Shown in pieces: positions 4,142 through 31,313 of a DNA stretch of 64,000 bases (position 1 is the first letter of the stretch; every line of letters begins with the position of its first letter). The DNA is taken from positions 8,738-72,737 of the forward strand of contig CALWNC010000002.1 of the NCBI GenBank assembly GCA_944382715.1, read 5' to 3'. Below the pieces are notes generated by a model. The model saw only the letters and a list, made by a program, of their open reading frames with translations. It did no database searches and was not told the DNA's origin. Origin of the DNA: an uncultured Clostridia bacterium. Its GTDB lineage: Bacteria > Bacillota > Clostridia > Christensenellales > UBA1242. A program made the position numbers and the translations under genes.

Positions 4142-5185
4142 ATGAATATAGCAATTGATTGTAGATATATTGGAAAATCAGGAATAGGTAGAGTTTGCGA
4201 GGGTATATTGGATAATTTAGATTATACTCAAAATACTTATTTTTTAATTGGCAAAAGAGAAAATCTAGAAAAATATCAACCAGCAAACATTATTGAAGAT
4301 AATACTGAGCCATATTCAATTAAGGGAATTCTCTCTTTTGATAAAAACATTAATAAGATTTGTGACGCATTGATAATCCCAAACTTTTTAATACCATTAA
4401 ATGTTAAAATTCCCACTTATACAATAATGCACGACCTTGCATTTTTGGATGTAAAAGAAACTACAAAGGGATTTATTGATAAGCTGTTAAAAAAATATCT
4501 TCTTAAAAGATGTATGAAAAAGTCTAAAAAAATTGCTTGTGTATCAAATTTTACTAGGTCAAGGTGTGAGCATTTTTATGGAGAACTTTCAAAAAAATGT
4601 TATACAAATTATGTTGGACTATCAAATACAATTTTAAATGCTAATGTTAATGGAATAGAAAAAAATAATGTGATTGTTTTTGTGGGAAATGTAAAGCCTC
4701 ATAAGGGACTAAGGACATTAATAGAATCCTATAAAAAACTGCAAAATACAGATTATAAATTGAAAATTATAGGTGAAAAAGATAATTTTGCAGTTAAACT
4801 TGACACTGAAGATATTAATGTTGATGGGGTTGAATTTACGGGAAAATTATCAAACTTTGAACTTGTGAAAGAAATTGCTTCTGCAAAATTGCTGGTGCAA
4901 CCTTCTATATATGAGGGATTTGGTGTTCCACCTCTAGAAGCTCTTTATCTTGGGACAAAACCTATAATTAGTGATATAGAGGTATTTAACGAAATATATA
5001 GTGACTTTGATGTTGATTTTTTTAAATGTGGAGACGCTGAAGATTTGGCAAATAAAATAAAATCAGCAGTTACAGTTGTTTCAAATCAAAGACAAAAAAT
5101 TGATGAAAAGTATAACTACACAAAATTTACAAATTCACTATTAGAAAAAATATTTGATGAGGAATTAGTTTATAATGGAAAATAA
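4142..5185 (+). CDS. GT4-family glycosyltransferase
   Basis: EGFGVPPLEALYLGTKPI (E-x7-E) and a GT-B-like layout. Confidence 0.75.
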   Translation: MNIAIDCRYIGKSGIGRVCEGILDNLDYTQNTYFLIGKRENLEKYQPANIIEDNTEPYSIKGILSFDKNINKICDALIIPNFLIPLNVKIPTYTIMHDLAFLDVKETTKGFIDKLLKKYLLKRCMKKSKKIACVSNFTRSRCEHFYGELSKKCYTNYVGLSNTILNANVNGIEKNNVIVFVGNVKPHKGLRTLIESYKKLQNTDYKLKIIGEKDNFAVKLDTEDINVDGVEFTGKLSNFELVKEIASAKLLVQPSIYEGFGVPPLEALYLGTKPIISDIEVFNEIYSDFDVDFFKCGDAEDLANKIKSAVTVVSNQRQKIDEKYNYTKFTNSLLEKIFDEELVYNGK

Positions 5186-7902: not shown

Positions 7903-8175
7903 TTATTGAGTATCTGCAGAATTATCCATATTTTCAGAAGCATCTTTGAATGAAATTACCTTTCTTAAGTCATAGTCAGATGTTATCTTTTTGGAAATTC
8001 TGCCCATAAGATTTAAAGGATAGCATTTTTTTATAATAGTTTCCAGTTCTGCATCTTCTATCCAGTTTTTTTCTTTATACTTTAATACCTTTGAAATTTG
8101 TTTATTTTCAAATGTACAAGAAACTAGTGTTTGTTTTTCATTGTACAATAAATAATAAATTTTATTTCTATCCAT
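7903..8175 (-). CDS. hypothetical protein (90 aa)
   Basis: Isolated ORF with no recognisable motif. Confidence 0.4.
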   Translation of the reverse strand: MDRNKIYYLLYNEKQTLVSCTFENKQISKVLKYKEKNWIEDAELETIIKKCYPLNLMGRISKKITSDYDLRKVISFKDASENMDNSADTQ

Positions 8176-17197: not shown

Positions 17198-17515
17198 ATG
17201 AAAAAAGAATTTACTTATGATGATGTTATTTTTAGGTTTGGATATTATAGAAATAAAAATAATTTATCAGCAAGAGATTTAAGTTTGCAACTTGATTATG
17301 GAGCATCACAGGTTAATAGAATAGAGAGAAAGAAAGTAGAATTAAAAGTTTCGACGCTTTTAAAATTTATGGAACTTGTAGGGATAACTCCACTTGAATT
17401 TTTCTATCCAGATTTAGAAAGTTATAAATATGATATAGAACTTATAAAAATACAATCAAATTTATCAAGTGAAGATAAACAAATGTTAATAGCACTGGCA
17501 AAGAAAATTAAGTAG
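17198..17515 (+). CDS. XRE-like HTH protein (105 aa)
   Basis: NNLSARDLSLQLDYGASQVNRIERKKVELKVSTLLKFMELVGITPLEFF. Confidence 0.7.
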   Translation: MKKEFTYDDVIFRFGYYRNKNNLSARDLSLQLDYGASQVNRIERKKVELKVSTLLKFMELVGITPLEFFYPDLESYKYDIELIKIQSNLSSEDKQMLIALAKKIK

Positions 17516-17545
17516 AGATAGATTTAAAAGTAGAGATAAGTTTAT

Positions 17546-18083
17546 ATGATAAATGCAAAAGAAAAAGAAGAGATAGATAATCTAGTTAAGAGATTCAAGT
17601 TAAATAATGACATGGAAGCCTTTGAAACACTGTATAAGAAAACAAGTAGAGAGATAGCGACCTTTTTAAAATATGCAGGAGCAGATGAATTTACTATAGA
17701 CGATGTGTTGTCCACAACATTTATGCTGGTTTATCAAAAGGCAAAACATAAAGTTAAATGCAAAGATTGTTATTTTTGGATATTTAAAGATAGCAAAATA
17801 TACATTATACAATTATAATAGGAAATTTAAAAGAGAAACAAGCTATGAAACAATTGAATTTGAAATTGAAGATAGAAAGCAGAGTAATTTTGAGGAATAT
17901 GTATCAATAAAAGATTTGATAGATAATCTTTCGAATATGGAAAAGCAAATTTTGCAGTTAAAAGTTTATCAATCTATGACATATAATCAAATTGCCGAGA
18001 TTTTAAATATATCAAAATCGACAGTAATAAGAAGATATGACAGAATAAGAAAACTGATAGAAAGGATAAACAAAGATGAATGA
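17546..18083 (+). pseudogene. ECF-type sigma-70 family factor split by a +1 frameshift
   Basis: The region-2-like part (17546-17818 frame) and the rest lie in frames offset by 1. The second frame carries FGYLKIAKYTLYNYNRKFKRE plus region 4, LSNMEKQILQLKVYQSMTYNQIAEILNISKSTVIRRYDRI. Removing one A from the run at 17743-17746 restores one ORF. Confidence 0.75.
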
Positions 18084-19635: not shown

Positions 19636-19870
19636 AATATCTCAGGTTATAGAAAAACTCCGCAATTGAAAAATTAAATAAATTTTTCTTGTTGCGTTTA
19701 CTGTAAAATGCCTAAAAACAGTCATTTAGGATAACTAAACTCCTGCTTTTAGGCATTGTTTTTTTTGTAACCTGAATAATTGTTTACACTCTGAGACATT
19801 TATTAAAAATGTCTTTTTTGCGTATTTAGTTAATTTATAAATTCTATTTTTGCGAATTTTAGTAGCACAA

Positions 19871-20230
19871 ATGAAGAAGGTAAAGGAGATATTAAAAATC
19901 TATAGAATAAATAAGACTTACAAACGGGATTTAGAAAATGAGCTAGCTAAAGAAGTGGAAAATGTGGACCATCGAAAATTTCTCGAAAGAGAACTTAATC
20001 AAGTAGTCGAAATAATTGAAGATGTCGATAAAACTATCTCATCTTTAAGTCAACCAAACAAAAGTTTAATTTTTTATAGGTATATAAAGGGTATGTCTTA
20101 TGAAAGTATTGCTTTCAGGTTAAATTATTCCGTGCAAAGAATATATCAACTTTTAAATTTAGCACTAAATGAATTTCTAGAAAAATATATTAACATACAA
20201 AAAGAAAAAATAAGAGAAGAAAAAGATTAG
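19871..20230 (+). CDS. small sigma-70 region-4-like DNA-binding regulator (phage late-activator RinA/ArpU-like size and layout)
   Basis: About 120 aa. C-terminal LSQPNKSLIFYRYIKGMSYESIAFRLNYSVQRIYQLLNLALNEFL. No region 2. I prefer the ATG at 19871; the track starts at TTG 19850. Confidence 0.6.
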   Translation: MKKVKEILKIYRINKTYKRDLENELAKEVENVDHRKFLERELNQVVEIIEDVDKTISSLSQPNKSLIFYRYIKGMSYESIAFRLNYSVQRIYQLLNLALNEFLEKYINIQKEKIREEKD

Positions 20231-20251
20231 AGTAAATTAGAGTAAATTTTA
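20226..20251 (+). promoter_or_regulatory. 26-nt conserved element, copy 1 (tandem TAGAGTAAAT x2)
   Basis: attagagtaaattagagtaaatttta is identical to 28322-28347. It overlaps the regulator stop codon, 55 nt upstream of the RHS start. Confidence 0.55.
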
Positions 20252-20256
20252 ATTAT

Positions 20257-20296
20257 CCTGTGAATTAGGTAGAACACCTACCGAGTAAATCACAGG
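20257..20296 (+). promoter_or_regulatory. 5' leader hairpin whose 3' arm overlaps the RHS Shine-Dalgarno
   Basis: Outer stem cctgtga / tcacagg and inner stem ggtag / ctacc. The SD ggag begins inside the 3' arm. Confidence 0.4.
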
Positions 20297-20305
20297 AGAA
20301 AAATT

Positions 20306-23300
20306 ATGTATAAAAAGATAGACAAAAGTAATTGCATTGCAGTAACACAATGCGAAGGCTACGCAAAAGTTGAATACACGCCAAGTTTTGATAGTAGCCA
20401 CATTAAACTAATAAGGTCACTGCTCGTATTTAATCGAAGTAACATAACTGGCACATACGACTTTGATGTAGTGGTAAACGGAGCAGTCATTGACCAAATA
20501 AAAATGGATAGCGACAGTGTAAAGGCAAAAATTTGCATTGATATAACCGATGAACTGAGTGACCTTTTAAAGTCAGGTGACATAACACTTGAAATAAAAT
20601 TAAACGGTTTGCAGGGACTTACCAGCAATGGAAGTTTTGAAGTAATAAGCCAGTATATTCCTTCAAAACAACAACTTTCACAGGGAAGTTATAAAGGTAT
20701 TTCAGCAAAAAGAGCAGGAAGTGTCAGTGTTAATCTCGTGACGGGCGAATTAAGACTTGTGCATACTGACGAAAGTAGCAATGAAAAAGTATTGCCACTA
20801 GGTGAAAGCCATATATTTAATTCGTTTGACGATAATGAAAACAAAGTTAGTGTAAAACTTGAAAATGACGAAATATCACTTCCAAAATTACACACGGGAA
20901 AGGGCTGGCGACTTGCGCACGAGCAGTATCTTGTTAAAGAGCGAGCCGAAAGTGGAATGTTAGATAATAACACGGCGACAAGATATACTCTTGTTGCAGG
21001 TGACGGGAGTGAAATTCAGTTTGACCAAAAATACTACTATGAAAAGCAGGTTAATGGTGAAACTGAAAAGATATATTTGTGTCCAAGCCAAGTAATTGTT
21101 GACTATGACGAATCACTATCATTTGTAGAAGACGGAGAAAATCAAACGAAGCACGAAGTTAAAAGTGAAATTGTAAGCGATAGCGACCTAGTATTGACGC
21201 CAAGACTAGAAGCTGAAAACGGCACAGAAAAAATTTCAAAGGACATTGAAGAGATTGAGAATATAAAGGCTCAAATTGAAGAATTAAAATCGGCAAGAGA
21301 AAGCGTGATTGAGAGTTTGAAACTCAATAGATATGCAGAAAGAGTCTTTTTAAAGTCAACAAGTGCGTCTGATGAGCAGACAAAAGGTCAACTGCTTAGC
21401 TATTTGGCACAGGCAAAAAACTTTGAACTAACAAAAGAAAACTATGAAAAAGAAAAAGACTATGCACTAAACAGTATTAACTATAAAATTGAAAGTAAAA
21501 ACGAATTAAATGGAAAAGAGAATAAGACAAGTAAAGACAACATTCAATTGAATATGTTAAATAGAGAAATCCAAATTTCAGAGACAAACTACAAGTATAA
21601 GTGGGGTGAAGGTTGGAAAGACTTGTCGCAGAACACAAGTATTAGCTGTGGAAATAATGAAAATATTGACGAGCTTGTTTCAAAGATAAATTCTTTAGAG
21701 AACGCGGGAACAATTGACGGTGTTACTCTAACTGAATATGACTGTAAACTAATAAATAGTACCAAATCATCGCTACTACTTAGCCTAGACTTTACAGATG
21801 AGCAAAAGAGTTATCAAGAGTATCAGCTCAGCATTGAAAAACAAGAACTTTGCAAAAATTTGGATAATTACAGCCAAAACATTGAAAAACTAATTTATAC
21901 GCTAAATGAATATAAAAAGCAAGTTCCAGAATACTATTTGTCAAATGCCGAAAAAACACTAATGTTTGGGTTTGCAAAATTCAGGGAGCAGTCAATGGCA
22001 GTAAGTAATCTAAAAAGTTCGCAGGATATCGTAAACTTAATTGAAAATGCAATTCAAGAAAATCTGCTTGAAAATTTGGATTTGGGCGAGAGCGTGGAGT
22101 ATGAAATTAGTAACAATGTGGACATTTATAGACTGATTGCAATTTTTGATAATTATAGTAATGCAGTATATGTCGAGTATAGTGACGGCGAAAGCTATGA
22201 CGAGAGCAAAATCGTATCGCTTAGCGACTCAGACGACTCAAAAATTACTTTTAAATATAATGATGACGGCTTGCTAGAGAGTATAGAAAGTGATAGGGGA
22301 AAAAGGACAAATTACTTTTATACTGGCGAAAGATTGACAAAAATCACATACTCAGACGAAACCGAGTCAAATTATGAGTATAACGCAGATGGGAAACTTG
22401 TAAAGGTAACAGACAGTTCGGGCTACTTTGTTCGTTTTGACTACTCTTTGGCAAACCATATCAAAGTTTATGAGGGAAACAAGTACAGCACCATAAGTAA
22501 AGAGCCAGAGGTTGCAGTAAATGAGTCAGGCACAGCGAGTGAACTTGAAAGACTGCTTTGTGACATAGAACTTTACGACTATAAAATGACAACAATAACT
22601 GATAGAAAAGAGAATATTCAGACATATATTTTTGATAGATTTGGCAAGGTCGTAACAGTTTATGAAGGCAAAATTAACGAGCAAAACTCACAGGCTAGTA
22701 ATGTAAAGTCAGTTTCACATTCATATAAAGACAATAAACGCACAGTAACCGTAAAAAAACTTCCAAATGCAAAGAATTTGCTTCGAGTTTACACGGAAAA
22801 TTATGTAGGTGACGAAGTTTATGCTGGCGATGATGTCTACCCAACACTTTACGAAAATATGCCCGATAAAACTATCTATAGTGTAAGCGCCACAAAATCT
22901 TTTACTGTAAAGCAAGATGTTGTCCAACTTTTAAATCTTGGTACAAAAAGCTTTGTATTTTCTGGTTTTGCAAAGGCAGACGCTGGCTACACTGACATAT
23001 ACGGCGAAGATTCGTATGACGAACTTGAAAATATGTTAATTTCAAACTCAGACACAAATAGACAAAACCGAAAGTTTGAACTTAGAGCAAGTTTAACTTT
23101 TGAAGATTATAAAACTAGAGAAATAATTATTCCGTTTGACTGGATGCAAACTAACTGGCAGTATGCAGAACTCCCAATTGTAATAGGCGAAGATGAAACA
23201 TTAAAAAATATATCTCTAAAATTTGACTATACAGACAATATTGGAGGTGCAAAAATCTTTGGTTTTTCACTTAAAGAAGCCGAAGTGGAGCAAAGCGAAT

Positions 23301-26203
23301 ATAATAGCAAAGGTCAGCTAATCGCCCAAACAAATAGCTTGCAAAAGACAAAAATAAACTATAACTTCTCCGAAGAAACAAATTTGCCACTTTCAGCGTC
23401 ACTCACATATAAGGGCAAAAACTTTGTAATAAAATATTTTTATGGCTCAAATAAAGAACTTTTAAAGAGTATAGACTATAAAGGAAATGTGCAAGAATTT
23501 GAGTATAACGACAAAGGACAAAAGATAAAAACAATCTCATATAACACAAACGACCCGACAACAAAACGCGTAGAAGAAATCAAACTAGACGAAACGGGCA
23601 AGCAAACTTCTCTGCTTGACGAGTTTGGTAGAGAAACACAAACCTACAATTACCTTAGTGGAACAAATATCACCTCCTCTATAACTAATAACAATGGGCT
23701 AAAACTCAGTTATTGTTATGACCCACTAAGTGAAAATTTAACGGGAATTTGTGCAAGTGCAGGCTATGAGAGTAATGAAAATATTTACGGCTACACTTTG
23801 GGAGAACTTACCAGTTTAACCCACAACGATTTTTCAGTAAACTTTGCCTATGATGGATACGGCGAACTTAAATCTATTAAAATAGACGGCGAAGATAACG
23901 ACTATGTAACCTTATCTCAAAACGATAACGGCGAAATAAAAACATATGCTAGTGGAGAACTTGTTGAAACCGTATTGGATAGTGATGGCGATGTAACAAA
24001 AGTGAATTTTGGGACGGAAACTGAAACCGAAACAATAGTTACCAATACTTACGATGACGCCAAAAATTTAACCAGCCAGACGGAAAACTTATATGGCAAA
24101 CAATTTACTTATTATTATGGTCAAGACGCCTTTGGCAATGAAAATTCAGTCGAAAAGACAGAAATTGACAGTAGTGGAGAAATACCAGTAGAAACAAAGC
24201 TTTATGGCATAGAGTCCACATATGATAAAACGGGGCTAATAAAAAGTGCAGAAGTTTCATTTGAAGGTGTTGAAGATAAAGAAATCACTCTGCTTTCTGA
24301 GTACGAATACGATGAAACAACACCAGAAAGCCAACTCAAAAAGATTAACTATACCGATTATTATCCAACATCGGCTACCTATGGAAGAACTTACAAAACC
24401 TATCAAGAATTAGAGCAGGATAATTTTGGCAGAATTAAAAGGGTGTCACTTGGAGATAGCGTTGGCGAAATTTTAAGCAAAAATTATAGTTACGCCAAAA
24501 AAGGCGAAAACACTTCAGACCTAGTTTCAAGCATATGGTACGGAGCAAATGGCGAAATGAAAGATTCCTTAAAATTTGCCTATGACCAAAGCGGAAATAT
24601 AACCAAAGTTTATGAAAATGGCATATTAATTGCAAGGTACGAATACGACGAACTTTCAAGAATAGTGAGAGAAGACAATAAAAAACTTGACAAGACCTAT
24701 TTTTATGAGTACGATAAAGGTGGAAACATTGTAAGAAAGTTAAGCATAAAGTTTAACTTGTCTAACAAAGAAACAATAACAACTTCGCCAACCGAAATTC
24801 GTTATAGCTACAAGTCGAACGGTTGGAAAGACCAACTGCTTAGCTATAATGGTGAAGAGTGTGAGTACGACAAACTTGGAAATCCTACACTTTATAGGGA
24901 TAAAGCTCTCACTTGGGGGAAACTCAGGAACCTAGAAGAATTTGTTATTGATGAAAATAACAGTGTTTCATATACATATGATAAAAATGGTATTAGGAAT
25001 ACTAAAACTAGTACCATAAAAAGTACAAATGAAGAAAATTCCGAAATAACTACAATAGTAACCAAAAAGTTTTTGTATAATGGCACAAGACTATTAATGC
25101 AAAATAATGGTGACTCAGCGACCAATAATGGCTACAACTCAAAATTATACTTTCACTATGGGGTAGATGGGCTAATTGGATTTACACATGTAAAATCTAC
25201 TTATTTAATATACAATTATTACTATAAGAAAAATGCCCAAGGAGACATAATAGGAATATATGATTCCAGTGGGAAAGAAATAGTAAAGTATTACTATGAC
25301 GCATTTGGGAATGTAAAGGCTTATTATAATTCAAGTGCAAATTACTACTATGAAATTACTGAAACATCTTCAACCACAAATGCAGTAATAGGCAGATTAA
25401 ACCCATTTAGGTACCGTGGCTATTACTACGACCAAGAGACCAAGTTGTACTATCTAAACAGCAGATATTACGACCCAGAAACAGGCAGATTTATAAATGC
25501 CGATGATATTAGCTACCTAGATAAAGACACAATAAACGGCTTAAACCTATATGCATATTGTGGAAATAATCCTGTAATGAACATCGACCCAAATGGACAT
25601 ATTTTTCTTACTTTTTTAATATTTTCTATTATTACAGGTGCTATTGTTAGTGGAGTATCCAGTGGTGTTAAATCATATATTAGTGGAGAAAGAGGAAGCG
25701 ATTTAGTAGGCTCTGTTTTAAGTGGAGTTGTTGAAGGTGCAGGCTTAGGAGCAATAATGGCATTAGGTGGTGCCGCTGGATTAGTGGCTACTGGTATTAG
25801 TGTTACTAATTTTGCATTATCTTCAATAGCTGCCCTGAGTGTTTCTATGGCGATTGGTTTTGGAACAGGTCTATTATCTTATTCATTAGATAATGTAATA
25901 AGCAAAGACAAAAATTGGAATTTTAAAGACTTTTTGAAATCGGGGATTTCTTCTAGTATTCAATCCGTTATTACATTTAGCTTCTCTTACTTAGGTGGTA
26001 AATTAGGTTTATTTAATAACAAATTAACTAATATGTCATTTCAAGATTTTATGCAATATAAATTTAATATTACAGGAGATATATCTATTTTACAATCTAT
26101 AATTTATGGATTCGAAATTTTATTTTCAAATAATATTACCAAATACATTTTTATTAATTTACCTGGATTCATATTTAGAAATGCAGTTAATAAGGTTATA
26201 TAG
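20306..26203 (+). CDS. RHS/YD-repeat polymorphic toxin (1965 aa) with a hydrophobic glycine-zipper C-terminal domain
   Basis: Many YD repeats, for example YNDDGLLESIE..YFYTGERLTKITY..YEYNADGKLVKVTD. Canonical RHS core end PFRYRGYYYDQETKLYYLNSRYYDPETGRFINAD...YAYCGNNPVMNIDPNGH. A 200-aa Gly/Ala/Ser-rich hydrophobic tail follows. Confidence 0.9.
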   Translation: MYKKIDKSNCIAVTQCEGYAKVEYTPSFDSSHIKLIRSLLVFNRSNITGTYDFDVVVNGAVIDQIKMDSDSVKAKICIDITDELSDLLKSGDITLEIKLNGLQGLTSNGSFEVISQYIPSKQQLSQGSYKGISAKRAGSVSVNLVTGELRLVHTDESSNEKVLPLGESHIFNSFDDNENKVSVKLENDEISLPKLHTGKGWRLAHEQYLVKERAESGMLDNNTATRYTLVAGDGSEIQFDQKYYYEKQVNGETEKIYLCPSQVIVDYDESLSFVEDGENQTKHEVKSEIVSDSDLVLTPRLEAENGTEKISKDIEEIENIKAQIEELKSARESVIESLKLNRYAERVFLKSTSASDEQTKGQLLSYLAQAKNFELTKENYEKEKDYALNSINYKIESKNELNGKENKTSKDNIQLNMLNREIQISETNYKYKWGEGWKDLSQNTSISCGNNENIDELVSKINSLENAGTIDGVTLTEYDCKLINSTKSSLLLSLDFTDEQKSYQEYQLSIEKQELCKNLDNYSQNIEKLIYTLNEYKKQVPEYYLSNAEKTLMFGFAKFREQSMAVSNLKSSQDIVNLIENAIQENLLENLDLGESVEYEISNNVDIYRLIAIFDNYSNAVYVEYSDGESYDESKIVSLSDSDDSKITFKYNDDGLLESIESDRGKRTNYFYTGERLTKITYSDETESNYEYNADGKLVKVTDSSGYFVRFDYSLANHIKVYEGNKYSTISKEPEVAVNESGTASELERLLCDIELYDYKMTTITDRKENIQTYIFDRFGKVVTVYEGKINEQNSQASNVKSVSHSYKDNKRTVTVKKLPNAKNLLRVYTENYVGDEVYAGDDVYPTLYENMPDKTIYSVSATKSFTVKQDVVQLLNLGTKSFVFSGFAKADAGYTDIYGEDSYDELENMLISNSDTNRQNRKFELRASLTFEDYKTREIIIPFDWMQTNWQYAELPIVIGEDETLKNISLKFDYTDNIGGAKIFGFSLKEAEVEQSEYNSKGQLIAQTNSLQKTKINYNFSEETNLPLSASLTYKGKNFVIKYFYGSNKELLKSIDYKGNVQEFEYNDKGQKIKTISYNTNDPTTKRVEEIKLDETGKQTSLLDEFGRETQTYNYLSGTNITSSITNNNGLKLSYCYDPLSENLTGICASAGYESNENIYGYTLGELTSLTHNDFSVNFAYDGYGELKSIKIDGEDNDYVTLSQNDNGEIKTYASGELVETVLDSDGDVTKVNFGTETETETIVTNTYDDAKNLTSQTENLYGKQFTYYYGQDAFGNENSVEKTEIDSSGEIPVETKLYGIESTYDKTGLIKSAEVSFEGVEDKEITLLSEYEYDETTPESQLKKINYTDYYPTSATYGRTYKTYQELEQDNFGRIKRVSLGDSVGEILSKNYSYAKKGENTSDLVSSIWYGANGEMKDSLKFAYDQSGNITKVYENGILIARYEYDELSRIVREDNKKLDKTYFYEYDKGGNIVRKLSIKFNLSNKETITTSPTEIRYSYKSNGWKDQLLSYNGEECEYDKLGNPTLYRDKALTWGKLRNLEEFVIDENNSVSYTYDKNGIRNTKTSTIKSTNEENSEITTIVTKKFLYNGTRLLMQNNGDSATNNGYNSKLYFHYGVDGLIGFTHVKSTYLIYNYYYKKNAQGDIIGIYDSSGKEIVKYYYDAFGNVKAYYNSSANYYYEITETSSTTNAVIGRLNPFRYRGYYYDQETKLYYLNSRYYDPETGRFINADDISYLDKDTINGLNLYAYCGNNPVMNIDPNGHIFLTFLIFSIITGAIVSGVSSGVKSYISGERGSDLVGSVLSGVVEGAGLGAIMALGGAAGLVATGISVTNFALSSIAALSVSMAIGFGTGLLSYSLDNVISKDKNWNFKDFLKSGISSSIQSVITFSFSYLGGKLGLFNNKLTNMSFQDFMQYKFNITGDISILQSIIYGFEILFSNNITKYIFINLPGFIFRNAVNKVI
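24352..24771 (+). repeat. RHS core segment duplicated at 27702-28122
   Basis: Direct nucleotide alignment at offset 3350. Only scattered substitutions and a 1-nt indel near the 3' end. Confidence 0.9.
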
Positions 26204-28122: not shown

Positions 28123-28258
28123 TTCTATTTACAAATGATAAAAAGAAAATTTTTTAATTTTCAACATTAATGCACAAAAGAAGAAAATAATTTAAATAGA
28201 CCAGAAATCTATTTTAATTATGAGAAAAACAAAAGAAGAAAATATTATTATTTAAAAA

Positions 28259-28291
28259 ATATGAAGTAAATTTTATTGCTTCATATTTTTT
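28259..28291 (+). terminator. rho-independent terminator preceding the second conserved element
   Basis: Stem atatgaag / cttcatat followed by a T-run. Confidence 0.55.
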
Positions 28292-28321: not shown

Positions 28322-28347
28322 ATTAGAGTAAATTAGAGTAAATTTTA
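28322..28347 (+). promoter_or_regulatory. 26-nt conserved element, copy 2
   Basis: Identical to 20226-20251. A leader hairpin follows at 28361-28385 (ttgataagc / gcttatcaa). Confidence 0.55.
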
Positions 28348-28410
28348 AATATACTTAGAATTGATAAGCAGGCGAGGCTTATCAAAAAAAGACTAAGGAG
28401 GAAAAACAAT

Positions 28411-28446
28411 ATGGAAATTTTAGTGGAGATTTATACATATGAATAG
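28411..28446 (+). other. 11-codon upstream ORF (MEILVEIYTYE) carrying the only strong SD of this unit
   Basis: aaggagg at 28395-28401 lies 9 nt before the ATG at 28411. The uORF stop overlaps the ATG at 28439 of the next ORF, which has no SD of its own. Confidence 0.35.
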
Positions 28447-29044
28447 CTTTATTAACACACTTCAAAACTATCCTGTAAGAATTGTAGTAGTATCTGTGCT
28501 TGTAATAATTCTTACAAATCTTTTAAAGGTACCTATAAAAAGTGTAATTCAAAATTCGACTGAAAAATTAAAAAATATGTTAAGTGTAGTGATTATATTT
28601 ATTCCACTTATTTTGTCATTTTGCCTAACAATTTTAAACTCAGGATTATTTCACGAAGTTTGGTTTTCAGAACTAGTTTTTAGCGATGTTATAACATCTT
28701 GGTTATTGTCGCTTTCACTCTACTCAATTGTATCTAAATTATGGGCGTTAGTTACTGGAGTTTTAACTGGTAAAACTGATATTGACCAAATGCAAAAGGA
28801 CATTCAAGATATTACAAGTGAACTTAATTTGGATAAAGAAACTCTTACTTCACTTAACAATACACTAAGTAATTTAGTTAAACATAGAGATAACATTATT
28901 TCAAATAATGATATTGACATGGAAGAAGTTTTGAATTTAGATTTTCAAATAAAAAATCTTGAAGAACAAAAATCAACATTAAATCTAAAAATTGTAAATA
29001 GCGAAAAACAAATGAAAAGCTATAAAAGAAAACTAAAAAAATAA
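28439..29044 (+). CDS. polytopic membrane protein with C-terminal coiled coil (201 aa; holin-like role is speculative)
   Basis: Three to four hydrophobic segments in residues 10-110. A heptad-like charged tail follows (LNLDFQIKNLEEQKSTLNLKIVNSEKQMKSYKRKLKK). Confidence 0.55.
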   Translation: MNSFINTLQNYPVRIVVVSVLVIILTNLLKVPIKSVIQNSTEKLKNMLSVVIIFIPLILSFCLTILNSGLFHEVWFSELVFSDVITSWLLSLSLYSIVSKLWALVTGVLTGKTDIDQMQKDIQDITSELNLDKETLTSLNNTLSNLVKHRDNIISNNDIDMEEVLNLDFQIKNLEEQKSTLNLKIVNSEKQMKSYKRKLKK

Positions 29045-29057
29045 AAAGGAGAAAATT

Positions 29058-31313
29058 ATGAATTTTAAAAATAGAAACGCAACAAAACCAAATAGAGTAA
29101 CCATTACGCCAGAAAATGGTACTGCATTTACAGCAACAATTTCAAGAAATGATAGTCCAGTTTACAACCAAGAAGGGACTATGCTAACAGCAGAAGTATT
29201 TAATCAAATGTGTGATGACATTAATGCTAGTAATTCATTTGTTACGGGCGCAGAAAGTAGACTTCAAACGGTTGAAAGTGCCATTAATAACTTAGAGGTA
29301 AAAACCATTGTTGTTGACGAAAATACAAATCCTTCAGCTTCAATTTCGTCGTCAACTGATAACAAATTTAAAACAATTACATTTAATCTTCCAAAGGCAA
29401 AGCAAGGGAAATCATATAGAAATATGGGTGAATGGGTAAACACAAAAAGCTATGTTAATGATGAAAATTTTATTGATACAGTTTTTCTCAATGGTTGCAC
29501 ATATTTTTGCAAAATCAGCAATAACAATGTTCAGCCAGTTGACAACTCTGATTCTCAGTATTGGGGTTTGCTGGCTCGCCGTGGTGGGGAAGGCTCAGTT
29601 ACTATTGTTGATAATTTAAACAGTACAAGTTCTGACGCAGCTCTTTCAGCTAATCAGGGTAATTACATTAAGCAAAATTATGCTTTAAAATCGGGCAGTG
29701 TATATAAAGGAACTTGCCAAACTGCACAGTCAACAACAACGAAAGAAGTTGTCTGTGATGGGTTTGTCCTAGAAACTGGTGCAACCATTGATGTCAAATT
29801 TGATAATGCATCTGTATCTAGTGCGTACCTAAATGTAAACTCAACTGGTGCAAAGCAAATTAAATATCAATCGACTTCATATGGTCTATCCAATATTAGT
29901 GGGAGTTCTTATATTAGTGTTAGTTTTGGAGCTTGGAGTTCTGGCGACATCGTTAGATTTATTTATAATGGAACTTACTGGGTTGAAATATTTAATGTGT
30001 CAAGGGGAGTTAATGTTGGAAAACAAAATGCCTACAGTGCCGACAGTGCAACTTACGCAACATATGTTCGCACAAAATACGAGTCACCAACAGCCTCTAC
30101 CAAAAGATACTTAACTTTTGTTGATAGCAACAATTCTTCTTCACTTTCTGAGCAGTTATATACTGACGATGGAATTTCTTACGACAGTTACAACAACACT
30201 CTTCAAGTTGAAAATCTTTCTGACGGAACTATTAGTAAGCCTGTTTCTGAAATAATTTCTACAACTCAGCTTCCAATTGGTGCAATTTTTCAATCTGCAG
30301 TAAAACTAAATGACAGTGCATACCATGCACTTGATGGTTCTAGTTACTCGCAAAGTGGCATCTATTCAGAGTTTGTTTCTTGGCTCAAAGCACAGGTGTC
30401 TGCCGGTAATGCCACTACTTGCACTGAAGATGAGTTTTCAAATTCAGTTTCAAATACTGGCAACTGTGGAAAATTTGTAATAGACAATAACAACAATACT
30501 TTTAGGTTTCCCAAAATTACAAGATTTGTGCAGGGTATCTCTTCTGACAGTGAGATAGGCAATTCTATTGTTGCAGGTATTCCAAATATTAAAGGTGGAT
30601 TGGAACATACAGTTTCACTTGAGGGAACAAAACCAGCAAATGCTACGGGTTGTTTTAGCTGGAGTTTTTTGCAAGAAGGACATCATTATGAAATTAAATC
30701 AGGTGGCAATTCATGTGACCCAGTATTTAATGCCAATGACGGTTCAGCAATTAAGGGATTATACAGAGATGACGCAACTACAGTTCAGCCACAGGCAACT
30801 CAGTACCCATTTTACATAGTAGTTGCAAATTCAGCCAAAACAAGTGTTCAAACCAACATTGACAATATAACTAGTGACATAAATAACATTAATAGCAAAA
30901 TAGATAATAAATTTTGTTGTGATGGTTTTTTTATAAAAAATAAGACTTATACTTTTAATGAGAATTTATCTACAAATGTAATAGTAAAAGTGCCAGAAAT
31001 AACCAACAATTTAGAAGTTGAAACATTTACAATTAACACAAATGGAAGACCTCTTATTGTTTCAGGAAGCATATTTGGAACTTTTCAAAATATGTATAAT
31101 GCACAATTGAAGATTTGTATTGATGGCGTAGAAACCGAATTATTTGACACTTGGCAAGATGTTTCACATTGTTTTGAATTTACAAGAATAATCAAGGGAA
31201 TTCAAAAAGGTGATCATAGTGTGAAATTTATTATTAAAGGAAATGGACAAACAGATCAAACCTTTAATATTCCAAATCATGCAACAAATTATTTTGCAAT
31301 ATATGAAATTTAA
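29058..31313 (+). CDS. phage tail-fibre / receptor-binding-like protein (751 aa)
   Basis: N-terminus KPNRVTITPENGTAFTATISRNDSPVYNQEGTMLTAEVFNQM. Fibre motif VDNLNSTSSDAALSANQGNYIKQNY. Collar-like segment PIGAIFQSAV..YHALDGSSYSQSGIYSEFVSWL. Confidence 0.6.
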   Translation: MNFKNRNATKPNRVTITPENGTAFTATISRNDSPVYNQEGTMLTAEVFNQMCDDINASNSFVTGAESRLQTVESAINNLEVKTIVVDENTNPSASISSSTDNKFKTITFNLPKAKQGKSYRNMGEWVNTKSYVNDENFIDTVFLNGCTYFCKISNNNVQPVDNSDSQYWGLLARRGGEGSVTIVDNLNSTSSDAALSANQGNYIKQNYALKSGSVYKGTCQTAQSTTTKEVVCDGFVLETGATIDVKFDNASVSSAYLNVNSTGAKQIKYQSTSYGLSNISGSSYISVSFGAWSSGDIVRFIYNGTYWVEIFNVSRGVNVGKQNAYSADSATYATYVRTKYESPTASTKRYLTFVDSNNSSSLSEQLYTDDGISYDSYNNTLQVENLSDGTISKPVSEIISTTQLPIGAIFQSAVKLNDSAYHALDGSSYSQSGIYSEFVSWLKAQVSAGNATTCTEDEFSNSVSNTGNCGKFVIDNNNNTFRFPKITRFVQGISSDSEIGNSIVAGIPNIKGGLEHTVSLEGTKPANATGCFSWSFLQEGHHYEIKSGGNSCDPVFNANDGSAIKGLYRDDATTVQPQATQYPFYIVVANSAKTSVQTNIDNITSDINNINSKIDNKFCCDGFFIKNKTYTFNENLSTNVIVKVPEITNNLEVETFTINTNGRPLIVSGSIFGTFQNMYNAQLKICIDGVETELFDTWQDVSHCFEFTRIIKGIQKGDHSVKFIIKGNGQTDQTFNIPNHATNYFAIYEI

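What the first reader, a model, noticed from the sequence alone, without database searches (positions are those of the whole stretch)
20226..20305. Identical 26-nt element (tandem TAGAGTAAAT x2) plus SD-occluding hairpin upstream of the RHS gene
ATTAGAGTAAATTAGAGTAAATTTTA at 20226-20251 is repeated exactly at 28322-28347, where the surrounding sequence is unrelated. It can be read as a weak -35 (TTAGAG), a 17-nt spacer and a -10-like hexamer (TAATTA here, TAAATA at copy 2). The 10-bp direct repeat looks like an activator site. Downstream, cctgtga...tcacagg forms a hairpin whose 3' arm runs into the ggag of the RHS ribosome-binding site. This suggests a second, translational layer of control.
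Basis: seen in the sequence. Interest (0 to 1): 0.6.

Follow-up and report, generated by a model that had tools for sequence, protein, structure and literature searches.

The report
Phage-type activator promoter driving RHS toxin
The repeated 26-mer is most likely the binding site and promoter for a small phage-derived activator encoded just upstream, which switches on an RHS toxin and its partner genes; this kind of switch is known from phages, but I found no description of it on a toxin cassette.

Summary
The 26-mer is exact at both coordinates, and identity actually runs 27 nt. The genome holds four copies of the tandem 20-mer. All four lie 50-80 nt upstream of a gene, in two paralogous RHS loci.

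The element starts inside the stop codon of a 119-aa protein (19871-20230) that has only sigma-70 region 3/4. This is the layout of the phage Ltr/ArpU/RinA late-activator switches: direct repeats right after the activator gene. About eight independent homologous loci from other bacteria show the same rule. ATTAG is repeated every 10 bp, and the last ATTAG is followed after exactly 13 nt by a TAnnnT -10 hexamer. The gene downstream is usually an RHS gene. The repeats travel with the small activator gene, not with the neighbouring ECF sigma module.

The hairpin is real (-18 kcal/mol). Its 5' arm overlaps the inferred -10 (TATCCT, 20254-20259) and lies upstream of the predicted start site. It can therefore mask the ribosome-binding site only on read-through transcripts. 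It is not conserved at the other three copies.

The scan has reported the same switch in other genomes and in this genome's second locus.

The parts
19871..20230 (+). Gene for a 119-aa Ltr-like activator with sigma-70 region 3/4 only. Its TAG stop (20228-20230) lies inside the first ATTAG repeat.
   Evidence: Pfam Sigma70_r4_2 scores 27.4 bits against a cutoff of 25.7. phrog_36 'transcriptional regulator' E 1.7e-12. It aligns to FliA residues 136-238 only, so there is no region 2. The paralogue on contig C1 is 46% identical, with the recognition helix LNYS(V/I)QRIYQLLN conserved.
20226..20252 (+). Operator copy 1: ATTAGAGTAA x2 plus ATTTTAA, at about -40 to -14 of the predicted promoter.
   Evidence: The core is invariant in all 4 genomic copies.
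20254..20259 (+). Inferred -10 hexamer TATCCT, 13 nt after the second ATTAG. The predicted start site is about 20264-20268.
   Evidence: All 4 own copies have TAnnnT at this position. The N13 spacing is exact in L012, L017, L050, L052, L053, L054, L055 and L059. The start site has not been mapped.
20257..20296 (+). Nested hairpin: outer stem CCTGTGA/TCACAGG, inner stem GGTAG/CTACC at 20268-20282. The 3' arm overlaps the ribosome-binding site.
   Evidence: -18.2 kcal/mol, z -4.5. RNA starting at 20266 keeps only the inner stem and the ribosome-binding site is unpaired.
20295..20308 (+). Ribosome-binding site GGAG (20295-20298) and ATG (20306) of the RHS gene.
   Evidence: ORF list.
20306..26203 (+). 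Target gene 1: RHS protein of 1965 aa.
   Evidence: Pfam RHS_repeat E 1.5e-15. Homologous RHS genes follow the Ltr gene and its repeats in L050, L052, L053, L054 and L059.
28255..28290 (+). Intrinsic terminator just upstream of copy 2, isolating it as a separate transcription unit.
   Evidence: -13.5 kcal/mol, z -6.2, followed by a T-run.
28322..28348 (+). Operator copy 2, identical to copy 1 over 27 nt.
28350..28355 (+). Inferred -10 hexamer TATACT of copy 2.
   Evidence: Same N13 spacing as copy 1.
28362..28384 (+). Leader hairpin of copy 2 at the predicted 5' end of the transcript. It does not cover the ribosome-binding site.
   Evidence: -9.0 kcal/mol, z -3.6.
28439..31313 (+). Target genes 2: a 201-aa protein with three hydrophobic segments and a coiled coil (28439-29044), and a 751-aa tail-fibre-like protein (29058-31313).
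   Evidence: Hydropathy scan. Phage_fiber_rpt hit. Homologues follow the same kind of promoter in L012 and L017.

Best explanation
The element is the cognate operator, fused to a promoter, for the small Ltr-type (phage late transcriptional regulator-like) activator encoded at 19871-20230 and by its paralogue on contig C1.

**Proposed mechanism (inferred).** Activator molecules bind the ATTAG-containing 10-bp units on one face of the helix, at roughly -40 and -30. From there they recruit or position RNA polymerase carrying the housekeeping sigma factor. The promoter has a good -10 (TAnnnT, 13 nt after the last ATTAG) and no -35.

**Regulon (inferred).** Four such promoters in two paralogous loci form one small regulon:
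- the RHS toxin (20306-26203);
- a three-segment membrane and coiled-coil protein;
- a tail-fibre-like protein;
- their counterparts on contig C1.

**Shown here:**
- exact conservation of the element at 4 sites in otherwise diverged loci;
- overlap of the element with the regulator's stop codon;
- the same phased-repeat, N13, -10 layout downstream of homologous regulators in about eight independent loci;
- co-occurrence of the repeats with the regulator and not with the ECF sigma module.

**Inferred, not shown:** protein binding, activation, the start site and the sigma factor used.

**The hairpin.** It is specific to this copy. This is the only one of the four copies with no terminator between the regulator gene and the target. 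The most likely role of the hairpin is to mask the toxin's ribosome-binding site on read-through transcripts. Transcripts started at the activated promoter begin inside or after the 5' arm and should be translatable. I give this second point about 0.35-0.4.
For: 1. The 26/27-mer is exact; 0 matches are expected by chance. The composite motif ATTAG-N5-ATTAG-N13-TAnnnT occurs 4 times in the 1.61-Mb genome. All 4 are these sites, all on the + strand upstream of genes. About 0.8 are expected from base composition.
2. The two loci are paralogous at only 35-64% protein identity and about 67-70% DNA identity, yet the 20-nt core is 20/20 identical in all four copies.
3. [quoted passage not shown] Those repeats are necessary and sufficient for specificity (PMC3753634). 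Phi13 Ltr and TP901-1 Alt behave likewise; the Alt repeats span -76 to -32 (PMC13123087). I saw the 80alpha example directly: TGGCAGT x2 right after the rinA stop.
4. The regulator is sigma region 3/4-only. It hits Sigma70_r4_2 above cutoff and phrog_36 at E 1.7e-12. All 25 aligned homologues hit phrog_36, 11 hit DUF1492 and 9 hit TIGR01637 arpU weakly.
5. Loci found through the regulator alignment show ATTAG at 10-bp period overlapping or following its stop, then N13, then a -10. These are L012, L017, L050, L052, L053 (5 repeats), L054, L055 and L059. In 421 kb of fetched loci the composite motif occurs only at those places.
6. The downstream gene is an RHS in L050, L052, L053, L054, L059 and L016/L018/L051. 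It is the membrane-protein/fibre pair in L012 and L017.
7. L050 and L059 carry the regulator, repeats and RHS with no sigma/anti-sigma/peptidase module within about 3.8 kb upstream; the same holds for L053 and L054 within the 1.7-2.5 kb held. L011 and L014 carry the module without the regulator and have no repeats.
8. Copies 2-4 each sit just after a strong intrinsic terminator.
9. Repeat sequence changes with the recognition helix. RIYQ goes with ATTAG, RIFQ with TATAG in two lineages, and other helices with other repeats.
Against: - There is no experimental or transcript evidence.
- Similarity to characterised Ltr proteins is remote. hhalign against RinA gives E 0.033 (probability 1.5%) and against Alt nothing. 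TIGR01637 is below its cutoff. Only two weak tblastn hits appear in GenBank phages.
- The proximal repeat reaches about -21, closer to the -10 than in the published cases.
- The window's own regulator gene has lost its ribosome-binding site through an insertion. In this strain the activator may have to come from the C1 paralogue.
- Exceptions exist. L049 and L056 have the regulator without visible repeats. L069 breaks the helix/repeat correlation.
Confidence: 0.8

Rival explanations
1. The element is a promoter read directly by the ECF-type sigma factor of the neighbouring module (17546-18083 here, intact on contig C1), with the repeat acting as its -35 region.
For: An ECF sigma, a single-pass membrane protein (anti-sigma-like) and a secreted C39-like peptidase lie just upstream in both own loci and in L012, L016-L018 and L051.
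Against: - The repeats occur with the small regulator where no sigma module is present (L050, L053, L054, L059).
- They are absent where the module occurs alone (L011, L014).
- The downstream hexamer is a housekeeping-type TAnnnT.
- A 2- to 5-fold 10-bp tandem is not how ECF -35 elements look.
- The window's sigma is frameshifted while the element is intact.
Confidence: 0.07
2. One reading: the hairpin is part of the primary transcript and gives a second, translational layer of control over the RHS gene. It would be opened by a factor, temperature or ribosome traffic.
For: The hairpin is strong and well above shuffles, and its 3' arm pairs with two bases of GGAG. Hairpins whose 3' arm covers the ribosome-binding site or the ATG also occur in L050 (-11.9 kcal/mol, z -3.8) and L054 (-8.7, z -2.2).
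Against: - In all these cases the 5' arm lies in or directly after the -10, upstream of the expected start site, so it would be absent from the activated transcript.
- Only a weak 5-bp counterpart at copy 2 and none at the two C1 copies.
- Only 2 of the 4 ribosome-binding-site bases are paired.
- No Rfam family matches.
- Three strain variants are 100% identical here, so there is no covariation to read.
Confidence: 0.1
3. The repeats are recombination or cassette-boundary sites (or iterons) that bracket the roughly 8-kb RHS cassette and mediate its shuffling, rather than a transcription signal.
For: In both loci two direct copies bracket the RHS block (8.1 and 7.7 kb apart). The two loci are circularly permuted relative to each other. 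A serine recombinase lies near the regulator in L054.
Against: - Every copy has a fixed position and orientation relative to a -10 hexamer, a ribosome-binding site and a start codon.
- Most homologous loci have a single site, directly after the regulator gene.
- No inverted-repeat core or recombinase is associated with the element in this genome's loci.
Confidence: 0.03

Closest known systems
Ltr superfamily late-gene switches of phages of Gram-positive bacteria: RinA (80alpha, phi11), ArpU (phiFL2A), LtrA (Sigma70_r4), LtrB (DUF1492), LtrC (phi55), Phi13 Ltr (PMC3753634, PMC13123087)
   Same: - A small regulator with a C-terminal sigma-region-4-like helix-turn-helix.
- Two to five short direct repeats at about one helical turn, starting at or just after the regulator's stop codon.
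- A downstream housekeeping-type -10.
- Repeat sequence that is specific to the regulator variant.
   Different: - The target is an RHS toxin and a membrane-protein/fibre pair, not terS and the morphogenesis genes.
- No phage structural or packaging genes flank the locus.
- There are four promoters in two loci rather than one.
- The proximal repeat abuts the -10 (N13) and no -35 is present.
- Sequence similarity to RinA and Alt is not significant.
Alt activator of lactococcal phage TP901-1 (four imperfect direct repeats at -76 to -32; cited in PMC13123087)
   Same: Several phased direct repeats reach down to the -35 region of an activator-dependent late promoter.
   Different: There is no detectable sequence relationship (hhalign probability 0.1%). 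Here there are only two repeats, placed closer to the -10.
T4 MotA-dependent middle promoters (from general knowledge, not tested here)
   Same: An activator box centred near -30 replaces the -35 element, about 12-13 bp upstream of a normal -10.
   Different: MotA needs the co-factor AsiA and is unrelated in sequence. Its site is a single box, not tandem repeats. This is an analogy of geometry only.
Clostridioides difficile PaLoc logic: TcdR sigma, holin-like TcdE and large toxins (from general knowledge; also named in scan note e1-5035903)
   Same: Signal-peptide-less toxins are co-regulated with a small holin-like membrane protein by a dedicated sigma-family regulator.
   Different: TcdR is a complete group-5 sigma factor with region 2. 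The regulator here lacks region 2. The toxins are unrelated (RHS shell versus glucosyltransferase toxins).

Membership tests
Ltr-superfamily late-activator switch | Small regulator (about 100-180 aa) with a C-terminal sigma-70 region-4-type helix-turn-helix and no region 2 | tested here: met
   The protein is 119 aa. Sigma70_r4_2 scores 27.4 bits against a cutoff of 25.7. It aligns to FliA 136-238 only. Of the 25 homologues, 18 hit Sigma70_r4 and 11 hit DUF1492.
Ltr-superfamily late-activator switch | [quoted passage not shown] | tested here: met
   The TAG stop 20228-20230 lies inside the first ATTAG. The same holds in L018, L052-L055, L059, L060 and L071-L079.
Ltr-superfamily late-activator switch | Repeat sequence specific to the regulator's C-terminal region | tested here: inconclusive
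   RIYQ helices go with ATTAG repeats. RIFQ goes with TATAG in L018 and L071. Other helices go with other repeats. The lineages are few and L069 is an exception.
Ltr-superfamily late-activator switch | The regulator binds the repeats and the repeats are required for activation (EMSA, reporter) | not testable with these tools
   Needs bench work.
Ltr-superfamily late-activator switch | Located at the end of a phage early region and drives terS, morphogenesis and lysis genes | tested here: not met
   The targets are the RHS gene, a membrane protein and a fibre-like protein. The flanks are glycosylation and metabolic genes, with no terminase, capsid or portal.
Ltr-superfamily late-activator switch | Detectable sequence homology to a characterised member (ArpU, RinA, Alt) | tested here: inconclusive
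   TIGR01637 arpU scores 24.5 bits against a cutoff of 43.1 for the C1 paralogue; 9 of 25 homologues hit it weakly. hhalign to RinA gives E 0.033, to Alt 0.42. The phrog_36 match is strong.
Ltr-superfamily late-activator switch | Small basic protein | tested here: met
   pI is 8.98 (window) and 9.10 (C1). Across the clade it ranges from 5.3 to 9.6.
ECF sigma-dependent promoter | The element co-occurs with the ECF sigma gene across genomes | tested here: not met
   Repeats occur without the sigma module in L050, L053, L054 and L059. The module occurs without repeats in L011 and L014.
Known cis-regulatory RNA (riboswitch, leader, thermometer family) | Match to an Rfam covariance model | tested here: not met
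   The only hits are chance-level (E 0.2-0.6, far below gathering scores). No gathering-level hit occurs in the whole window.

The most novel reading that the evidence does not exclude
A phage late-gene switch has been domesticated as the master switch of a leaderless-RHS toxin system in gut anaerobes. One activator would co-fire the toxin, a holin-like membrane protein and a fibre-like targeting protein, suggesting release by controlled lysis.

The switch would also carry a start-site-selective safety catch. The ribosome-binding site or start codon of the toxin is masked by a hairpin whose 5' arm lies in the promoter. Read-through transcripts from the regulator gene would then be untranslatable, and only transcripts started at the activated promoter would make toxin. 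The same geometry appears in this window, in L050 and in L053/L054.
Probability: 0.3. Interest if true: 0.7.

Novelty: new variant of a known kind. Interest (0 to 1): 0.48.

Why it matters
RHS toxins of Gram-positive gut bacteria that lack any export signal have no known regulation or release route. This element gives a concrete, testable handle.
- A short operator (ATTAG phased at 10 bp, then 13 nt, then a -10) marks the genes that fire together with the toxin.
- It can be used to find the regulon in metagenomes.
- It shows that the phage late-activator design is reused outside phages.

The hairpin geometry, if real, would be a simple way to keep a toxin gene silent although it sits directly behind its own activator gene. 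The mechanism class itself is ordinary and already published for phages.

Tried and rejected
- **Pattern search in the family.** I searched the 20-mer with up to 2 mismatches in 400 genomes of the same family. There were 4 hits, all with 2 mismatches, against 8 hits for the reversed control pattern. This is chance level, so the exact sequence is not shared with relatives.
- **Peptidase as anchor in genome contigs.** One distant hit only.
- **Peptidase homologues across the order.** 62 of 401 genomes, at 26-38% identity. Among the 29 best-matching loci fetched from other genomes (L020-L048), none is followed by the regulator, so they were no use for footprinting.
- **Class-wide search with the regulator alignment.** It found 62 of 399 genomes, but these are distant, mostly phage-type homologues with other repeats and no RHS downstream. 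This confirms the general layout but adds nothing for the ATTAG clade or the hairpin question.
- **tblastn against GenBank phages.** Two weak hits.
- **hhalign to Alt and RinA.** Not significant.
- **Rfam.** No family.
- **Strain variants L082 and L083.** The leader is 100% identical, so no covariation test of the hairpin was possible.
- **The 18-bp tandem at 17510-17544**, between the XRE gene and the sigma gene. I considered it as a related site, but it is absent from the C1 paralogue.
- **Iteron and recombination-site readings.** Rejected because of the fixed promoter geometry.

Full report
**1. The observation**

The 26-mer is present exactly at 20226-20251 and 28322-28347 on the + strand. 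There is no other match with up to three mismatches, and shuffles expect none. Identity runs one base further, to 27 nt. TRF calls both places a 10-bp unit in 2.3 perfect copies.

The window is G000:C2:8738-72737, from a 1.61-Mb genome of about 29% G+C. The tandem 20-mer has four exact copies in the whole genome: two in the window and two on contig C1, 7.7 kb apart. All are on the + strand, 50-80 nt upstream of a start codon with a ribosome-binding site. It is therefore neither a genome-wide repeat nor part of a larger duplication. Alignment of the four regions shows a 34-nt conserved block, AAARAT-TAGAGTAAAT-TAGAGTAAAT-TTKAAWTA, in otherwise dissimilar sequence.

**2. Context**

The two loci are diverged paralogues, at 35-64% protein identity and about 67-70% DNA identity, and they are circularly permuted.

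| Locus | Gene order ([element] marks a copy) |
|---|---|
| Window | XRE-type HTH (17198), ECF sigma (split, 17546-18083), single-pass membrane protein (18076), secreted C39-like peptidase (18799), 119-aa sigma-region-4 protein (19871-20230), [element], RHS 1965 aa, small membrane protein, RHS fragment, terminator, [element], 201-aa membrane/coiled-coil protein, 751-aa fibre-like protein |
| Contig C1 | [element], 198-aa homologue, RHS 1708 aa, further genes, [element], 349-aa fibre-like protein, then the same regulatory module ending with a 109-aa paralogue of the small protein |

The flanks of the window locus are glycosylation and metabolic genes. No phage structural genes are present.

**3. 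The small protein**

It matches Sigma70_r4_2 above Pfam's threshold and phrog_36 'transcriptional regulator' at E 1.7e-12. Against solved structures it aligns only to residues 136-238 of FliA, that is regions 3-4 without region 2. It therefore cannot be a complete sigma factor.

Of 25 homologues collected here:
- all 25 hit phrog_36;
- 18 hit Sigma70_r4;
- 11 hit DUF1492;
- 9 hit the ArpU model weakly.

These are the family definitions used for LtrA, LtrB and ArpU in the paper that defined the Ltr superfamily. That paper showed by reporters and EMSA that such proteins bind 2-4 direct repeats lying immediately distal to their own coding sequence, and that the repeats carry the specificity (PMC3753634). 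A 2026 paper reports the same for Phi13 Ltr and cites -76 to -32 for TP901-1 Alt (PMC13123087). In phage 80alpha I read TGGCAGT twice, 11 bp apart, directly after the rinA stop. In the window, the TAG stop of the small gene (20228-20230) is the TAG of the first ATTAG.

**4. Comparative test**

Homologues of the C39 peptidase led to loci with the same module. An alignment of the small protein then found 33 further loci in metagenomes and viral contigs.

Printing the stop-codon region of each shows one rule. ATTAG, sometimes nTTAG, is repeated 2-5 times at a 10-bp period, often running through the stop codon. The last ATTAG is followed after exactly 13 nt by TAnnnT.

| Site or locus | -10 hexamer after N13 |
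|---|---|
| Four own sites | TATCCT, TATACT, TAAACT, TATAAT |
| L012, L017, L055, L059 | TATAAT |
| L052 | TATACT |
| L053, L054 | TAAAAT |

L050 also fits (TATTAT). L060 has N14.

A second type uses TATAG: L016/L018/L051, whose unit TATAGTAAAT differs from the window's unit by one base, and viral contigs L071-L079. More distant phage homologues carry quite different repeats at the same place.

The composite motif occurs 4 times in the genome, all at these sites, against about 0.8 expected. In 421 kb of fetched loci it occurs only at the regulator-distal sites.

**5. Which protein reads the element**

The repeats accompany the small regulator where no sigma, anti-sigma or peptidase module is present. 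These are L050 and L059 (about 3.8 kb of upstream sequence held) and L053 and L054 (1.7 and 2.5 kb held). In L059 and L054 the neighbours are a divergent CI-like repressor, an ImmA-like peptidase and a serine recombinase. The repeats are absent where the module occurs without the regulator, in L011 and L014. This favours the small regulator over the ECF sigma and over the XRE protein.

The recognition helix is almost identical in the two own paralogues, LNYS(V/I)QRIYQLLN. That fits the identical operators in both loci and predicts cross-talk between them.

**6. Targets**

Downstream of the repeats lies a homologous RHS gene in L050, L052, L053, L054 and L059, and an RHS fragment in L016/L018/L051. 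In L012 and L017 the downstream genes are homologues of the membrane protein and the fibre-like protein.

I found no paper linking Ltr/ArpU-type regulators to RHS toxins in two full-text searches. The scan's own earlier notes describe the same wiring in other genomes and in this genome's C1 locus.

**7. Promoter geometry**

With the -10 at 20254-20259, the two units lie at about -39 to -20. No -35 hexamer is present; the sequence 17 nt upstream is AGTAAA.

Their -10 would read GAATTA at the two C1 copies. The N13 rule across loci supports TATCCT instead.

Copies 2-4 each follow a strong intrinsic terminator (-13.5, -16.3 and -18.6 kcal/mol). They are independent units that need their own promoter.

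**8. The hairpin**

It is real: -18.2 kcal/mol with z -4.5, and z -5.8 in my own script. However, its 5' arm (20257-20263) overlaps the last three bases of the -10 and ends at or before any plausible start site (20264-20268).

RNA beginning at 20266 keeps only the inner GGTAG/CTACC stem, and the ribosome-binding site is free. The two C1 copies have no comparable occluding stem, and copy 2 has only a weak 5-bp outer stem touching the SD.

Copy 1 is the only one without a terminator between the upstream gene and the target. The simplest functional reading is that the hairpin masks the toxin's ribosome-binding site on read-through transcripts from the regulator gene.

The same geometry, with the 5' arm in the spacer/-10 or directly after the -10 and the 3' arm on the ribosome-binding site or ATG, is seen in other loci:

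| Locus | Free energy (kcal/mol) | z |
|---|---|---|
| L050 | -11.9 | -3.8 |
| L054 | -7.4 to -8.7 | -2.2 to -3.8 |
| L053 | weaker | weaker |

L055, L059, L018 and window copy 2 show it only faintly. This is suggestive, not established. The examples are few, the sequences are AT-rich and no start site has been mapped.

**9. State of the window's own regulatory module**

Two other assemblies, L082 and L083, carry the same locus with an identical leader. Relative to them the window has two lesions:
- An extra T at 17783-17785 frameshifts the sigma gene.
- An insertion of about 190 nt between the peptidase and the regulator gene replaces the regulator's GAGGAG ribosome-binding site and adds two terminator-like hairpins. 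Part of this insertion recurs at C8:38567-38672.

The C1 module looks intact.

**10. Limits**

There is no transcript evidence and no binding evidence. Homology to RinA and Alt is not significant by hhalign against single sequences. Membership in the Ltr superfamily therefore rests on domain definitions, on layout and on the behaviour of the repeats across loci.

**11. Verdict**

- The activator-site reading is right.
- The hexamers are probably shifted by 4 nt.
- The translational-control reading needs to be recast as acting on read-through transcripts only.
- The mechanism belongs to a known kind, the phage Ltr switch, used here in a setting not described in the literature searched: an RHS toxin cassette outside a phage.

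Noticed in passing
window 17783-17785: The ECF sigma gene is frameshifted by one extra T (GGATATTTAAAG versus GGATATTAAAG in strain variant L083 and in the C1 paralogue). It could be a real pseudogene, slippage or an assembly error.
   Followed up: yes
window 19636-19870: An insertion of about 190 nt, relative to L082 and L083, lies between the peptidase and the regulator gene. It carries two terminator-like hairpins and replaces the regulator's GAGGAG ribosome-binding site with TAGTAG. 108 nt of it recur at 85% identity at G000:C8:38567-38672, which suggests a small mobile repeat.
   Followed up: partly
window 28411-28446: An 11-codon upstream ORF (MEILVEIYTYE) with a strong AAGGAGG ribosome-binding site ends 5 nt after the ATG (28439) of the 201-aa membrane-protein gene. 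This suggests translational coupling or reinitiation.
   Followed up: no
window 17510-17544: An 18-bp tandem (AAGTAGAGATARRTTTA x2) fills the gap between the XRE gene's stop and the sigma gene's start. It shares TAGAG with the element but is absent from the C1 paralogue.
   Followed up: partly
L005 6058-6091 (G000:C1:258058-258091): The terminator just upstream of the first C1 copy is a perfect palindrome that contains one repeat unit and its complement (ATTAGAGTA|CTCTAAT).
   Followed up: no
L017 about 8120-8160: A single ATTAGAGTAAAT, the window's exact unit, lies upstream of the first gene of the regulatory module in a different organism whose own operator is ATTAGCAAA-type. It may be a feedback site or chance.
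   Followed up: no
L071-L079 (IMG/VR viral contigs), about 4225-4400: In these phages, TATAG x3 repeats overlapping the regulator's stop are followed by a -10. Then comes a conserved G-rich leader of about 130 nt, ending in a terminator-like hairpin before the next gene.
   Followed up: no
L059 1028-3768; L054 62-2410: In loci without the sigma module, the regulator-RHS unit sits next to a divergent CI-like repressor. L059 adds an ImmA-like M78 peptidase, a WYL protein and a LexA-like S24 protein. L054 adds a large serine recombinase. This is a lysogeny-type switch in front of a toxin.
   Followed up: partly
L020-L048: C39-like secreted peptidases at 26-38% identity are common in the order (62 of 401 genomes). 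They were not found in the 20 genomes of the own family sampled. The fetched loci (L020-L048) lack the small regulator downstream.
   Followed up: partly
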